Shown here one piece after another: positions 695 to 43,198 of a stretch of DNA of 43,198 bases. A program made the translations under genes and the position numbers. Source of the DNA: a virus; the UHGV virus genome UHGV-1555466; one strand, 5' to 3'. The first letter of the stretch is position 1, and each line of letters opens with the position of its first letter. A model generated the notes under the pieces. That model did no database searches. It was not told the origin of the DNA and worked only from the letters and a program-made list of their open reading frames with translations.

Positions 695-964
<270 letters not shown>

Positions 965-5865: not shown

Positions 5866-6627
5866 TTACGAGGAAGCGTTAGCTATTTGAGCTTGTGTAA
5901 ATTCGAAACCAGAATTTTGTAACCGTTGCACTAGACGAGGAACTGTTTCACGTACATGGTCGTTGAAATTCAGATACAAAATCCCGTTAGCATCAGAAGG
6001 CTGTTCTAGGTGCTGTTTCTGAAGGATTGCTACATTGCTGCGCCCTAAGGACGAAAGAAGCATACCCATCTCGAGTACAACGTTCTGTCTTGCGCGGGGT
6101 TGGATTTCTGCTTCACCGGCGCGCTTTGAGTATCCCATATCATCAGGTGTCAAAAGAACAATCCCGAAACGAGTAGCAGTTTGTCCTTGCCCAATTTCAC
6201 GTTCAAGCTCTTCAATAATGGTGAGTCCAGTCCCTCCCGTATTCTGCAAAATGAAATGGTCTGGTAATCCAAGTTTATGAAGGATTAGCTCAAGTTGTTC
6301 CTTTGCAGTATGGTCATGGCCGTGAACAATGAATATCTTTTTGGGAAGCTCAGATGGCTGTTCTACGGCTAGTGGTGTTGCCGTGGGGGGCGTTCCTAAA
6401 TGGGACATTATTGCAGTTTCAACATTGGGACGTTCTTGAGGGTTCCCTTGAAACTGAATGGTCCGGGTGGTGTAAAGGTTAACAATTACGCCATTCGTTA
6501 AACGATAGCAGTCATAAGTCTCACGCTGTTCGTGGGAAAAATTGGTGAACCCACACTCCCTCAAAAAGTCAGGAAAAGATTCTCTCGGGTATGGATAGTT
6601 GATCGGCATTTCAGTTAGTTCCTGCAT
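5866..6627 (-). CDS. TIR-like domain protein (COG4271/PF10137-like C-terminal domain, unknown N-terminal domain)
   Basis: 253 aa; KKIFIVHGHD...FGIVLLTPDD...RARQNVVLEMGMLLSSLGRSNVAIL...EQPSD; own terminator downstream. Confidence 0.55.
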   Translation of the reverse strand: MQELTEMPINYPYPRESFPDFLRECGFTNFSHEQRETYDCYRLTNGVIVNLYTTRTIQFQGNPQERPNVETAIMSHLGTPPTATPLAVEQPSELPKKIFIVHGHDHTAKEQLELILHKLGLPDHFILQNTGGTGLTIIEELEREIGQGQTATRFGIVLLTPDDMGYSKRAGEAEIQPRARQNVVLEMGMLLSSLGRSNVAILQKQHLEQPSDANGILYLNFNDHVRETVPRLVQRLQNSGFEFTQAQIANASS

Positions 6628-41202: not shown

Positions 41203-41518
41203 TATGCTTATTGGCTATGTACGTGTGTCAACAAATGACCAGAACACAGATCTACAACGTAATGCGCTGAACTGTGCAGGATGCGAGCTGTTTTTTGAAG
41301 ACAAGATAAGCGGTACAAAGTCCGAAAGGCCGGGACTGAAAAAACTGCTCAGGACATTATCGGCAGGTGACACTCTGGTTGTCTGGAAGCTGGATCGGCT
41401 GGGGCGCAGTGTGCGGCATCTTGTCGTGCTGGTGGAGGAGTTGTGCGAACAAGGTGTTAATTTTAGTAGTTATGTTATTACAGGTGGGGGATTTCTCCCC
41501 CTTATGCAGATTTTCTAG
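41203..41518 (+). pseudogene. truncated serine DNA invertase (Gin/Pin/Hin family), C-terminal DNA-binding domain lost
   Basis: MLIGYVRVSTNDQNTDLQRNAL...GDTLVVWKLDRLGRS matches the invertase catalytic domain; similarity stops near 41467 and the ORF ends at 41518 (about 105 aa versus about 185). Confidence 0.7.
41486..41501. terminator. hairpin at the junction of invertase remnant and cargo
   Basis: ggggga tttc tccccc perfect 6-bp stem; sits just 3' of the 281-aa gene stop. Confidence 0.35.
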
Positions 41519-41522
41519 TTAA

Positions 41523-42368
41523 CTATTGGCGAAGTGGCCATATTTTTCTGTTTTTTAAAAAACTATCTTCAACTATATAACTGCAACAATGTTCACTAAG
41601 GCCATAAAAACTAATTATTCCATATTTATGAGAAGCTATATCAGACAGTTCTGCTAATACTGTGGCAAGCCAACGAGCGATGCTAAGAGAATAGAATCTT
41701 CCCCACTTTTGAACAATGGTATTTTGTCCAGTACGGATGGAGGCTGATATAAGGTCTTGCATAATGTTGGTACTTTCATTCATATACATGACCGTTGTAT
41801 ACGGTGAAAGAGTGGCATTGATAAACCTAGCATTTTCTTCAACACGTCTTTGTTCAACTGTATAATAATAATGTTTTTCAAGGATACTCTCGGCTACTTC
41901 TCCCCACCATTTATTAATAGGTTCATTATTGGTTAAATTGGGGCTGCTTAATGAGGAGAAATTTGCGTAACGTCCCCGTCGGGCATCAGCAAAGGAATCT
42001 AAACATTCAAGTATTTTGTAGGTAATTTTATGTGTAGGACGTGAATATCTCAGAGATAGTTGCATTTTTTTAGAAATACTATCAACCTCGTTGGTTAATT
42101 CAATGAGCTTATGTCCAAATTTTCTTACAATATTCTCATCAGGCATTTTCCCTTTGTGTTCAATGGCATAGTGTGCAACAAGTATTAGTTTAGCAAGTCT
42201 CTCAAAACCTACAGAAAGCCCAAAAAATGCTGTGTAATATTCACCTATTTTGTCTGCATAATTGGCTTTACCTATGGCTGTTGCCCCAGAACCAATGAGC
42301 TGTGTAACTAAAGATGCTTCTCGGCCCAGAGCGTGCCATGCTGGAATATCCCAGGGATTTTTATTCAC
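41523..42368 (-). CDS. hypothetical protein (AT-rich cargo gene)
   Basis: 281-aa ORF, AT-rich; no family recognised by eye. Confidence 0.55.
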   Translation of the reverse strand: MNKNPWDIPAWHALGREASLVTQLIGSGATAIGKANYADKIGEYYTAFFGLSVGFERLAKLILVAHYAIEHKGKMPDENIVRKFGHKLIELTNEVDSISKKMQLSLRYSRPTHKITYKILECLDSFADARRGRYANFSSLSSPNLTNNEPINKWWGEVAESILEKHYYYTVEQRRVEENARFINATLSPYTTVMYMNESTNIMQDLISASIRTGQNTIVQKWGRFYSLSIARWLATVLAELSDIASHKYGIISFYGLSEHCCSYIVEDSFLKNRKIWPLRQ

Positions 42369-42495
42369 TTTATTATTTTCCTTTGCTCATAAATTTAAAT
42401 TGTTTGAGTATCTCATAAAATATAAGGAGATGGTTAAGGTTGTTGATCGCATATAATAGCTATTGAAAGTCAAGAACTCGGTTTTATGTTCTACC

Positions 42496-42536
42496 ACTAA
42501 TTAATATATTGTGAGTTTGACAATATATTAATTAGT
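42496..42536. repeat. perfect 17-bp inverted repeat with 7-bp spacer
   Basis: actaattaatatattgt (42496-42512) / acaatatattaattagt (42520-42536), between the 88-aa and 281-aa genes. Confidence 0.8.
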
Positions 42537-42669
42537 ATGATCAAACCAGCCATCAACTGATTCCTTGTATCTTTCAGAGTCTCCAGAACAAAAGCCTTAA
42601 CGAATTCCTTATTTGTGAGTGCCTTACCAAAAGCCCATTGTTGCAGGGAACGAGTATAAAACTCGCCAG

Positions 42670-42936
42670 CTACTGGAGCAGGCTACCTGATTGTCGATCG
42701 ATTCCTGCGTCCATATAGTCGATGGTCTTCTGGAGCTCTTCGATTAGGGCAATAGCTTTTGCTCGAGAAATGCATATTAGTTGATCCGGAAATTCTTGTA
42801 AGGGCCAGTTTGGTATACAGGCCATGTTATCAGTGAAGGATGCAGACAAGTAAACTTCATTGGTAACTAGGGAATAGCTTACCTCAAAATTGGTGAGTTC
42901 CGGCAAACTGCTAACGTTTGATTCTTTTCTGCGCAT
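42670..42936 (-). CDS. hypothetical small protein (AT-rich cargo gene)
   Basis: 88-aa ORF upstream of, and co-oriented with, the 281-aa gene. Confidence 0.45.
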   Translation of the reverse strand: MRRKESNVSSLPELTNFEVSYSLVTNEVYLSASFTDNMACIPNWPLQEFPDQLICISRAKAIALIEELQKTIDYMDAGIDRQSGSLLQ

Positions 42937-43078
42937 AATATTATCCAGGACTGTAATTATGTACAGTTAATGGTCTTCAATTTCGAAGAGGGAGTCAAGG
43001 GGGAGTCTCAAATGAACCTTTATAGAAAGGGGAGCTCTTTGTGTTGCTGAACGTATGCAAAATTTTTTTGCACCATAA

Positions 43079-43102
43079 ATTCAATAACACATTCAATAAC
43101 AC
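43079..43102. repeat. tandem 12-bp direct repeat (attcaataacac x2) next to attR; candidate integrase arm-type sites
   Basis: Two exact tandem copies; related AACACA(TT) motifs occur in the attL arm (about 1085-1120). Confidence 0.4.
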
Positions 43103-43134
43103 ATTACTGCATCACCATGAAAATAAATGTATTT

Positions 43135-43191
43135 TTATTTAATTTCACACATATCACAATTGATGCATTTTTTAGTGATTAACAGCGCCAT
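43135..43191 (-). pseudogene. yfhL: displaced original 5' end of yfhL (16 native codons then stop)
   Basis: Minus-strand ATG at 43191 encodes [16 protein letters not shown] then EIK-stop where the frame leaves the core into phage DNA. Confidence 0.6.
43144..43161. repeat. attR core (18-bp direct repeat)
   Basis: Exact copy of 908-925. Confidence 0.65.
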
Positions 43192-43198
43192 AAGGAAA

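What the first reader, a model, noticed from the sequence alone, without database searches (positions are those of the whole stretch)
41203..42936. AT-rich two-gene cargo with a perfect 17-bp palindrome between a truncated invertase and attR
Invertase homology ends abruptly near 41467 and AT-rich DNA follows, carrying a co-oriented 88-aa gene and 281-aa gene of unrecognised family. Between them lies a perfect 17-bp inverted repeat (42496-42536, 7-bp spacer) that could be an operator or RNA processing element. The prophage end next to an invertase is where Mu carries mom and e14 carries mcrA, a classic defence-cargo position. Candidate two-gene defence or addiction module whose insertion appears to have destroyed the invertase.
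Basis: partly seen in the sequence, partly recalled or inferred. Interest (0 to 1): 0.75.

Follow-up and report, generated by a model that had tools for sequence, protein, structure and literature searches.

The report
Solo HEPN-like defence gene in prophage
A foreign AT-rich DNA segment at the end of an E. coli prophage carries one intact gene from a large unnamed protein family that probably defends against other phages. The neighbouring 88-aa gene is ordinary phage backbone, not its partner.

Summary

The two-gene module reading does not hold.
- A sibling prophage in O55:H7 CB9615 shows that 1184 bp (41471-42654) replaced the invertase 3' half plus a 215-aa gene.
- The only intact gene in that segment is ORF281.
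- ORF88 lies outside the segment. It is a backbone gene of SEN34-like prophages and occurs without ORF281 in about 85 complete E. coli genomes.

Homologs are solitary genes with no shared partner. They sit in P2-like prophage accessory slots, on an integrase island, and inside Type I R-M operons (hsdM-hsdS-X-hsdR, the PrrC position).

The palindrome abuts a frameshifted dinI remnant. Its arms never vary, its loop does, and it is absent upstream of homologs in other genera.

Best reading: a single-gene, HEPN-like abortive-infection moron. The defence role and the RNase chemistry are both inferred.

The parts
41205..41470 (+). 5' part (about 88 codons) of a Pin/Gin-type serine invertase. The ORF runs on into foreign DNA and stops at 41518. 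It lacks the end of the catalytic domain and the DNA-binding domain.
   Evidence: Pfam Resolvase positions 2-98 of 145. PGAP calls it 'incomplete, missing C-terminus'. Homology to the intact 182-aa pinE of CB9615 ends at 41470.
41471..42654 (.). Foreign AT-rich segment of 1184 bp (36% GC). It replaces the 1045 bp that in the sibling prophage hold the invertase 3' half and a 215-aa gene.
   Evidence: BLAST breakpoints against L020. GC values. The segment differs by at most 1.4% between genomes, while the adjoining invertase fragment differs by up to 17%.
41486..41501 (.). Short G+C hairpin (GGGGGA-TTTC-TCCCCC) between the convergent ends of the invertase stub and ORF281. It is a possible terminator, but has no clear T-run.
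   Evidence: Read from the sequence. The terminator scan did not call it.
41523..42368 (-). ORF281: 281 aa, GTG start. It is the only intact gene in the foreign segment and has a HEPN-like all-helical fold. It is a candidate single-gene abortive-infection effector.
42369..42428 (-). Leader conserved with enterobacterial homologs (AAAGGAAAAT-N6-GTG and about 55 nt upstream). A promoter-like site TCAACA-16-TATATT lies at 42446-42419.
   Evidence: Alignment of upstream regions from five genera. Promoter scan, a consensus match only.
42496..42536 (.). Perfect palindrome with 17-bp arms and a 7-nt loop, 128-168 nt upstream of ORF281. The predicted RNA hairpin dominates a fold of -22.9 kcal/mol (z -3.6).
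   Evidence: In 26 loci there are 3 alleles, and all 3 variable sites lie in the loop. It is absent upstream of homologs in other genera.
42528..42647 (-). 3' remnant of a dinI-like gene with two 1-nt deletions (pseudogene). Its stop-codon region forms the first 9-10 nt of one palindrome arm.
   Evidence: 74-76% identity to DinI genes of lambdoid phages and E. coli prophages. Alignment to mEp460 dinI and translation showing stops.
42670..42936 (-). ORF88: conserved backbone gene of SEN34-like prophages, function unknown. It is not part of the cargo.
43144..43161 (.). attR core, repeated at 908-925 (attL). The prophage sits in the 5' end of yfhL.
   Evidence: Exact 18-bp direct repeat. Flanking genes are yfhL and yfhH.

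Best explanation
The region is the variable accessory ('moron') slot at the right end of a functional SEN34-like temperate myophage integrated in yfhL.

One illegitimate or flank-guided recombination event replaced the invertase 3' half and a resident 215-aa gene with a 1.18-kb AT-rich fragment from a non-E. coli donor. That fragment holds a decayed dinI 3' end, a 41-bp perfect hairpin and one intact gene, ORF281.

ORF281 is a self-contained single-gene unit: about 55 nt of leader, a GTG start and the coding sequence. It belongs to a large, horizontally mobile and so far unnamed family with a HEPN-like helical fold. The family's invariant residues are E56, R57 and K60 on the second long helix, H86 between helices, and R133-Y134 after the next helix pair.

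I infer that ORF281 is a latent, metal-independent endoribonuclease of the abortive-infection type. It would be expressed at a low level in the lysogen and switched on by an infection cue. It would then cut host or phage RNA and stop a superinfecting phage. Where homologs sit between hsdS and hsdR, the cue may be loss of the R-M complex, as for PrrC.

ORF88 is a separate, conserved phage backbone gene of unknown function. The palindrome most likely acts as a hairpin that insulates or tunes ORF281 expression, at the RNA or DNA level. It is a local feature of the E. coli cassette, not a defining part of the system.

**Shown:** the gene content, the breakpoints, the independence of the two ORFs, the family's size and conservation, and the contexts of homologs.
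**Inferred:** the defence function, the RNase chemistry, the trigger and the role of the hairpin.
For: **Replacement and breakpoints**
- Homology to CB9615 covers 41076-41470 and 42655-43198, with different DNA in between.

**Independence of the two ORFs**
- 129 complete E. coli genomes hold the ORF88-attR block, but only 44 hold ORF281.
- SEN34 has ORF88 but not ORF281.
- No shared neighbour family was found in 59 homolog loci.

**ORF281 is a real, selected gene**
- 486 hits with the word-indexed search and 938 clusters at 50% identity with the full HMMER search, nearly all 265-290 aa.
- Nine residues are invariant down to 27% identity.
- dN/dS is 0.10-0.26.
- Four nucleotide differences between E. 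coli haplotypes leave the protein unchanged.

**Fold**
- About 18 of the top 54 hits are HEPN proteins, including Csm6, HepN toxins, AF0298, AbiV, HepS, Swt1 and AbiA.
- One of 38 distant members gives a weak Pfam HEPN_AbiV hit, E 0.002.
- An acidic residue on helix 2, a histidine between helices 2 and 3, and a retained arginine match what PMC3710099 describes for AbiV/AF0298-type HEPN domains.

**Context of homologs**
- Enterobacter: directly after hsdM-hsdS-hsdR on a P4-type integrase island.
- Serratia: P2-like prophage, between gpA and the portal gene, beside a PvuII R-M system. That slot is a proven defence hotspot (PMC9122126).
- Morganella: P2-like prophage, between the tail-fibre assembly and sheath genes. 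From my own knowledge, this is where P2 carries the accessory gene Z/fun.
- 10 of 59 loci have hsdM-hsdS immediately upstream, and 7 of those have hsdR 10-18 nt downstream or overlapping by 10-13 nt.
- Other immediate neighbours include TIR, Abi_C, reverse transcriptase, Fic and PvuII genes.

**Spread**
- The cassette is nearly identical across backbones whose invertase stubs differ by up to 17%.
- The exact protein is indexed in 4019 blocks of the assembly collection, and it lay at this same locus in all 29 contigs read.
- Three sequenced phage records (vB_EcoM-606R2, -611R5, -683R1) match 41468-43143 at 100%.
Against: - There is no experimental evidence for defence, toxicity or nuclease activity.
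- The canonical HEPN Rx4-6H motif is absent. No invariant R and H lie 4-6 residues apart.
- Foldseek against the PDB found nothing significant. Profile searches against PDB sequences also found nothing.
- I could not see which half of the protein aligned to HEPN domains, nor whether the invariant residues cluster in three dimensions.
- No PADLOC model matches.
- About three quarters of homolog loci have no R-M gene as an immediate neighbour, and some sit between housekeeping genes.
- The window has no adjacent R-M system, so a PrrC-like trigger cannot apply here in cis.
Confidence: 0.6

Rival explanations
1. Two-gene addiction or defence module. ORF88 and ORF281 work together, as antitoxin and toxin or as sensor and effector, with the palindrome as their shared operator.
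For: Both are co-oriented on the - strand at the prophage end, and both lack a known family. They are adjacent in every E. coli copy of the cassette.
Against: - ORF88 lies outside the replaced segment and is a 94%-conserved backbone gene in prophages that lack ORF281.
- None of 59 homolog loci has an ORF88-like or any other common partner.
- The 301-bp gap holds a dinI pseudogene remnant and a strong hairpin.
- ORF88 homologs are confined to E. coli, Salmonella and Citrobacter, whereas ORF281 relatives span many phyla.
Confidence: 0.05
2. RNA-protein (type III-like) pair, as in lactococcal AbiV. The transcript containing the 17-bp hairpin upstream of ORF281 binds and restrains the HEPN-like protein, and infection releases it.
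For: - AbiV needs an upstream non-coding RNA, abiV2, and binds a small hairpin in it (bioRxiv 10.1101/2024.05.05.592566).
- The hairpin lies 128 nt upstream on the coding strand and folds strongly.
- In 26 loci the arms never vary, while 3 of the 7 loop positions do. The chance of that is about 0.005 if changes were spread evenly.
Against: - The hairpin is absent upstream of homologs in Enterobacter, Serratia, Acidibrevibacterium and Methylocella, and sequence conservation ends about 55-60 nt upstream of the start.
- In R-M operons the gene starts 8-18 nt after hsdS, leaving no room for such an RNA.
- One arm is partly built from the dinI stop region, which suggests an accidental origin.
- There is no Rfam match and no tandem repeats of the ToxI type.
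Confidence: 0.12
3. ORF281 is a non-catalytic HEPN-like adaptor or regulator, or an anti-defence factor that serves the phage, for example by modulating host Type I R-M. It is not a nuclease that aborts infection.
For: - No Rx4-6H motif is present.
- Tight, sometimes overlapping coupling with hsdR would also fit a structural or regulatory R-M subunit.
Against: - Nine charged or aromatic residues are invariant across very distant members (E17, E56, R57, K60, H86, R133, Y134, W154, R232). That pattern is more typical of a catalytic site than of a scaffold.
- Most homologs have no R-M gene as an immediate neighbour.
- The family occupies accessory slots of P2-like prophages, one of which is an experimentally tested hotspot for host-protective systems.
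Confidence: 0.15
4. Decaying passenger DNA. The segment is a recombination scar with no current function, and the palindrome is a by-product of the junction.
For: - The segment contains a frameshifted dinI remnant and truncates the invertase.
- At least one strain (PEC411) has a frameshifted ORF281, and one viral contig (L096) shows an altered reading frame.
Against: - ORF281 is intact in nearly all copies, and the differences between E. coli haplotypes are synonymous.
- The family is under purifying selection.
- The cassette has spread across diverged prophage backbones.
- The palindrome arms are invariant.
Confidence: 0.05

Closest known systems
HepS of Salmonella prophage Gifsy-1 (single-protein HEPN abortive-infection system; PMC13043305)
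   Different: No detectable sequence similarity. HepS is 218 aa with a canonical HEPN active site (an H105A mutant was used for the structure). ORF281 is 281 aa, lacks Rx4-6H and has an extra C-terminal helical half. The HepS trigger (siphovirus tail tip) and target (tRNA anticodon loops) are known, whereas nothing is known here.
Lactococcal AbiV (HEPN RNase with upstream RNA abiV2; Pfam PF18728)
   Different: The window protein does not match PF18728. AbiV has R91 and H97, a usable Rx4-6H motif, and ORF281 does not. The upstream hairpin is not conserved with the gene in other genera.
PrrC anticodon nuclease of the E. coli prr locus (hsdM-hsdS-prrC-hsdR)
   Same: In 7-10 of 59 homolog loci the gene sits exactly where prrC sits, between hsdS and hsdR, with gaps of 8-18 nt or overlaps. 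PrrC's nuclease domain is HEPN (PMC3710099).
   Different: ORF281 has no N-terminal ABC-ATPase domain and no Rx4-6H motif. The E. coli copy has no adjacent R-M system. No sequence similarity to PrrC was detected by any profile library.
Accessory exclusion genes at prophage ends or hotspots (P2 old, tin and Z/fun; Mu mom; e14 mcrA)
   Same: The genomic logic is the same: a variable, AT-rich, non-essential gene at a fixed slot next to the tail-fibre/invertase module or next to att, swapped between related prophages. Homologs occupy the P2 gpA-Q hotspot and the P2 G-FI slot.
   Different: The proteins are unrelated. The comparison concerns position and evolutionary behaviour only. The positions of mom, mcrA and Z/fun come from my own knowledge and were not tested here.

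Membership tests
HEPN superfamily | Four-helix up-and-down bundle fold | tested here: met
HEPN superfamily | Conserved Rx4-6H endoRNase motif | tested here: not met
   The invariant residues in 38 diverse members are E17, E56, R57, K60, H86, R133, Y134, W154 and R232. No R and H lie 4-6 residues apart. A variant arrangement like that of AbiV/AF0298 is possible but was not verified in three dimensions.
HEPN superfamily | Profile match to a described HEPN family (Pfam) | tested here: not met
   The window protein has no Pfam hit at E up to 1. One of 38 relatives hits HEPN_AbiV at E 0.002.
AbiV-type RNA-protein system | Essential upstream non-coding RNA with a hairpin bound by the protein | tested here: inconclusive
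   A 17-bp perfect hairpin lies 128 nt upstream, with invariant arms and a variable loop. It is absent upstream of homologs in other genera. Binding cannot be tested with these tools.
PrrC/RloC anticodon nucleases | N-terminal ABC-type NTPase fused to the nuclease domain | tested here: not met
   The protein is 281 aa with no NTPase domain in Pfam or NCBIfam. Family members are almost all 265-290 aa.
PrrC/RloC anticodon nucleases | Gene embedded in a Type I R-M operon between hsdS and hsdR | tested here: inconclusive
   Met for 7-10 of 59 homolog loci. Not met in the window, which has no R-M genes nearby.
Two-gene toxin-antitoxin or defence pair (ORF88 + ORF281) | The two genes co-occur and are co-inherited across genomes | tested here: not met
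   ORF88 occurs without ORF281 in about 85 complete E. coli genomes and in SEN34. ORF281 homologs occur without ORF88 in 59 loci.
Two-gene toxin-antitoxin or defence pair (ORF88 + ORF281) | Operon-like adjacency (short or overlapping junction) | tested here: not met
   The gap is 301 bp and holds a dinI pseudogene remnant and a strong hairpin.
Described anti-phage systems (PADLOC-DB 2.0) | Match to a model of a known or candidate defence protein | tested here: not met
   No hit for ORF281 or ORF88 at E up to 1. Among 38 relatives only two stray weak hits appeared. Libraries newer than 2023 could not be searched.
Pin/Gin/Hin serine DNA invertases (the truncated gene) | Complete catalytic domain plus C-terminal helix-turn-helix DNA-binding domain (about 180-190 aa) | tested here: not met
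   Only positions 2-98 of the 145-position Resolvase profile are present. The intact sibling gene encodes 182 aa, and homology ends at 41470.

The most novel reading that the evidence does not exclude
ORF281 founds a new HEPN-like nuclease family with a non-canonical active site (E-R-x2-K, then H, then R-Y). It would work as a one-protein abortive-infection system. In many bacteria it would be wired into Type I R-M operons as a PrrC-like guard that needs no NTPase domain. In the E. coli phage cassette it would additionally be restrained by a cis-encoded hairpin RNA.
Probability: 0.3. Interest if true: 0.65.

Novelty: new member of a known kind. Interest (0 to 1): 0.45.

Why it matters
- **Scale of the family.** It has about 940 clusters at 50% identity across Proteobacteria, Actinobacteria, Chloroflexota, Nitrospinota and other phyla. 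No model in Pfam, NCBIfam, PHROGs or PADLOC matches it.
- **Abundance in E. coli.** The E. coli allele is indexed in thousands of blocks of the public assembly collection and is carried by phages that have been sequenced.
- **If it is a defence gene.** It would add a widespread single-gene system to the catalogue. It would also give a second, simpler example of an RNase placed between hsdS and hsdR, which would make the 'R-M guard' idea known from PrrC testable in many bacteria.
- **For annotation.** The case shows that adjacency at a prophage end does not make a module. Comparison with sibling prophages separated the cargo from the backbone.

Tried and rejected
**Family and structure searches that gave nothing useful**
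- Pfam, NCBIfam, PHROGs and PADLOC scans of ORF281 gave nothing. For ORF88 the only hit was an unannotated PHROG.
- Profile searches of A1 and A3 against PDB sequences gave only noise.
- Foldseek against the PDB gave nothing significant. The afdb50 library was unavailable.

**Ideas tested and dropped**
- Internal duplication (tandem HEPN) in ORF281: hhalign of the N-terminal half against the C-terminal half gave probability 1%.
- Palindrome as an intrinsic terminator: no T-run on either strand, and the scan did not call it.
- Palindrome as a known RNA: no Rfam hit at E up to 1.
- ToxI-like repeats: none found.
- Palindrome as an invertase crossover site: the real sites are 39309-39328 and 41123-41142 and are unrelated in sequence.

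**Search for the donor of the cassette**
- No E. coli genome or phage record holds the palindrome or ORF281 in any other context.
- Collection scans for the palindrome, and for its flanks alone, returned only copies of this same cassette.

**Literature**
- Searches for the protein accession, the phage names and R-M-embedded HEPN genes found no description of this family.
Full report
**1. What is in the sequence**

The window is an E. coli chromosome segment with a 42-kb prophage inserted in the 5' end of yfhL.
- An 18-bp core, TTCACACATATCACAATT, is repeated at 908-925 and 43144-43161.
- The integrase gene is at the left end, and yfhH follows the right end.
- Three GenBank phage records (vB_EcoM-606R2, -611R5, -683R1) match 41468-43143 at 100%.
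- Its closest classified relative is Salmonella phage SEN34, genus Brunovirus.

- The serine-recombinase ORF matches only positions 2-98 of the 145-position Resolvase profile. PGAP marks it as missing its C-terminus.
- DNA to its right is AT-rich: 36.1% GC for 41471-42654 against 49.6% for the rest of the prophage.
- ORF281 (41523-42368) and ORF88 (42670-42936) are both on the - strand.
- The inverted repeat 42496-42512 / 42520-42536 is perfect. It is the longest in the window. The longest arm reached only 11 in 500 shuffles of the segment and 11 in 30 shuffles of the whole window.

**2. Cargo and backbone, separated by comparison with sibling prophages**

About 129 of 5426 complete E. coli genomes match some part of 41468-43143. 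Only 44 hold most of it, and most of the remainder match only 42655-43143, at about 94% identity.

E. coli O55:H7 CB9615 has the same prophage architecture. It carries an intact 182-aa pinE, then a 215-aa hypothetical gene, then an ORF88 homolog, then yfhH.

Pairwise BLAST places the homology at 41076-41470 and 42655-43198. So 1184 bp in the window (41471-42654) stand where 1045 bp stand in CB9615. The event was a replacement. It removed the invertase 3' half and the resident 215-aa gene.

The slot is variable in other relatives too. IAI1 has an acyltransferase plus the 215-aa gene, and SEN34 has an acyltransferase and a small ORF.

ORF88 lies outside the replaced block.
- It has 60 homologs, confined to E. 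coli, Salmonella and Citrobacter.
- The homologs have a constant 87-88 aa length and 66-86% identity.
- In the circular SEN34 genome it is divergent from the integrase gene across attP.
- It is therefore a backbone gene.

**3. Contents of the replaced segment**

ORF281 is the only intact gene.

Positions 42528-42647 are 74-76% identical to the 3' end of dinI-like genes of lambdoid phages and E. coli prophages. Aligned with phage mEp460 dinI, the remnant shows two 1-nt deletions and translates with stops. The segment's right breakpoint therefore lies inside a dinI gene of the donor.

The dinI stop-codon region (ACTAATTAA) forms the first 9-10 nt of one palindrome arm.

No E. coli genome or phage record carries the palindrome or ORF281 in any other context. 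The donor was probably not E. coli.

Between genomes the cassette differs by at most 1.4%, whereas the adjoining invertase stub differs by up to 17%. This indicates that one acquisition spread by recombination across diverged backbones.

**4. The ORF281 family**

- A word-indexed search found 486 relatives, with 56-74% identity among the 120 best listed. They come from Enterobacter, Citrobacter, Serratia, Klebsiella, Morganella, Vibrio, halomonads and alphaproteobacteria, and all are named 'hypothetical'.
- A full HMMER profile search found 938 clusters at 50% identity. Of these, 687 have E below 1e-10, and almost all are 265-290 aa.
- A genome scan added Mycobacterium, Nitrospinota, Fibrobacteraceae, Chloroflexota, Longimicrobiaceae, Binatia and Mailhella.
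- In 38 members down to 27% identity, nine residues are invariant: E17, E56, R57, K60, H86, R133, Y134, W154 and R232.
- dN/dS between enterobacterial copies is 0.10-0.26.
- The enterobacterial copies all start with GTG and have 37-41% GC.
- They also share about 55 nt of leader.
- Outside E. coli they share a downstream hairpin with a compensatory change.
- No Pfam, NCBIfam, PHROG or PADLOC model matches.

**5. Fold**

The AlphaFold2 model built from 30 sequences is all-helical, with pLDDT 80 and pTM 0.81.
- These are interleaved with generic helical bundles.
- Foldseek against the PDB found nothing. Sequence profiles against the PDB also found nothing.
- One of 38 relatives gives a weak Pfam HEPN_AbiV hit at E 0.002.

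The canonical Rx4-6H motif is absent. Anantharaman et al. (PMC3710099) describe HEPN families, AbiV and AF0298 among them, in which three things hold. An acidic residue sits on helix 2. The motif keeps the basic residue but lacks the histidine. An alternative conserved histidine comes from the insert between helices 2 and 3. In the model, E56, R57 and K60 lie on the second long helix (42-70). H86 lies between that helix and the next. R133-Y134 follows helix 114-127 in a low-confidence loop.

This fits that description. I could not inspect coordinates, so the fit is an inference. There is no sign of an internal duplication.

**6. Where homologs live**

| Host / locus | Position of the homolog |
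|---|---|
| Enterobacter | Directly after hsdM-hsdS-hsdR on an island with a P4-type integrase |
| Serratia | P2-like prophage, between gpA and the portal gene, beside a PvuII R-M system |
| Morganella | P2-like prophage, between the tail-fibre assembly and sheath genes |
| Klebsiella | Beside umuDC-like genes |
| Acidibrevibacterium, Methylocella | Alone between housekeeping genes, one next to a tRNA |

The Serratia slot is an experimentally tested defence hotspot (PMC9122126). The Morganella slot is where P2 carries Z/fun, which I state from my own knowledge.

I clustered the neighbours of 59 loci.
- Ten loci have hsdM and hsdS immediately upstream on the same strand.
- Seven of those have hsdR immediately downstream, with gaps of 8-18 nt or overlaps of 10-13 nt.
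- Other immediate neighbours include TIR, Abi_C, reverse transcriptase, Fic, C5-methylase, PvuII, integrase and transposase genes.
- No family is shared beyond the R-M genes.

The gene is therefore a single-gene unit with a recurrent R-M association. In those operons it occupies the position that prrC has in the E. coli prr locus (PMC3710099).

**7. The palindrome**

- As RNA on the coding strand it dominates a fold of -22.9 kcal/mol, z -3.6.
- It lies 128-168 nt upstream of the GTG and about 50 nt upstream of a promoter-like site.
- It has no T-run, no Rfam match and no ToxI-type repeats.
- I retrieved loci by their flanks alone, to avoid selecting for intact arms. That returned the same six viral contigs as the arm-based search, plus three metagenome contigs.
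All three variable sites fall in the 7-nt loop and none in the 34 arm positions. The chance of that is about 0.005 if changes were spread evenly.
- This points to constraint on the stem, or to a mutable extruded loop.
- The palindrome is absent upstream of homologs in other genera. Conservation there stops about 55-60 nt before the start codon. In R-M operons there is no room for it.
- I read it as a local regulatory or insulating hairpin of the E. coli cassette. An AbiV-like RNA partner remains a minority possibility.

**8. Verdict**

- This is foreign cargo in a swap-prone slot.
- Its arrival truncated the invertase.
- It is one gene, not a pair.

The most likely function is a single-protein, HEPN-like abortive-infection or exclusion factor. 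It is comparable in logic to HepS of Gifsy-1 (PMC13043305) and, where embedded in R-M operons, to PrrC. The defence role and the RNase chemistry are inferred from fold and context, and no experiment supports them yet.

The family appears undescribed, but it falls within a well-known kind of system. Interest is therefore moderate.

Noticed in passing
window 5866-6627 (-): A 253-aa TIR-domain protein in the prophage early region. It matches PADLOC candidate system PDC-S35 (E 1e-108) and Pfam CAP12-PCTIR_TIR (E 3e-31). This would be a second likely defence gene in the same phage.
   Followed up: partly
window 39309-39328 and 41123-41142; locus L026: These are the crossover sites of the invertible tail-fibre segment (AAAC[C/G]TTGGTTTGGGAGAAG in inverted orientation). 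L026 is 100% identical on both sides but has segment 39329-41122 flipped, although its invertase is truncated in the same way. Either another Pin-family invertase in the cell still flips the segment in trans, or the inversion predates the truncation.
   Followed up: partly
window 41123-41470 versus 41471-42654: Between genomes the invertase stub differs by up to 17% (58 of 348), while the adjoining cassette differs by at most 1.4%. The same breakpoint and cassette therefore sit on diverged backbones, which points to spread by homologous recombination through the flanks.
   Followed up: partly
L020 4310-4957 (-), also L018 4310-4957: The same slot in O55:H7 CB9615 and IAI1 holds a 215-aa protein (WP_001288816 / WP_001288814) with no Pfam or PADLOC match. 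It is another uncharacterised cargo candidate.
   Followed up: partly
window 695-955 and 43162-43198: The prophage supplies a replacement 5' end for yfhL at attL, so the gene stays intact (annotated as the 86-aa YfhL). The original 5' end ([16 protein letters not shown]...) is left as a stub beyond attR.
   Followed up: partly
window 42986-43007 and 43079-43105: Two short tandem repeats (AAGAGGGAGTC x2 and ATTCAATAACAC x2.2) lie between ORF88 and the attR core. They may be arm-type binding sites for integrase or an accessory factor.
   Followed up: no
L002, L007, L091, L093, about 50 nt after the stop codon of the ORF281 homolog: The enterobacterial homologs outside E. coli share a downstream hairpin, GCTC[A/G]CAAC...GTTG[T/C]GAGC, with a compensatory A-T to G-C change. 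It is probably the terminator of the mobile unit. The E. coli cassette has a different hairpin at 41486-41501.
   Followed up: no
L088 (strain PEC411), window-equivalent position 42064: A 1-nt insertion frameshifts ORF281 in this strain, and PGAP annotates only a 113-aa fragment. This is an occasional loss of the gene.
   Followed up: no
L019 (strain CAU16175): Here the prophage end is rearranged. An IS4-family (IS421) element sits between the invertase stub and ORF281, and the cassette is joined to a truncated tail gene. An IS1 insertion was seen in another strain (H17) and an IS3 insertion in H40.
   Followed up: no
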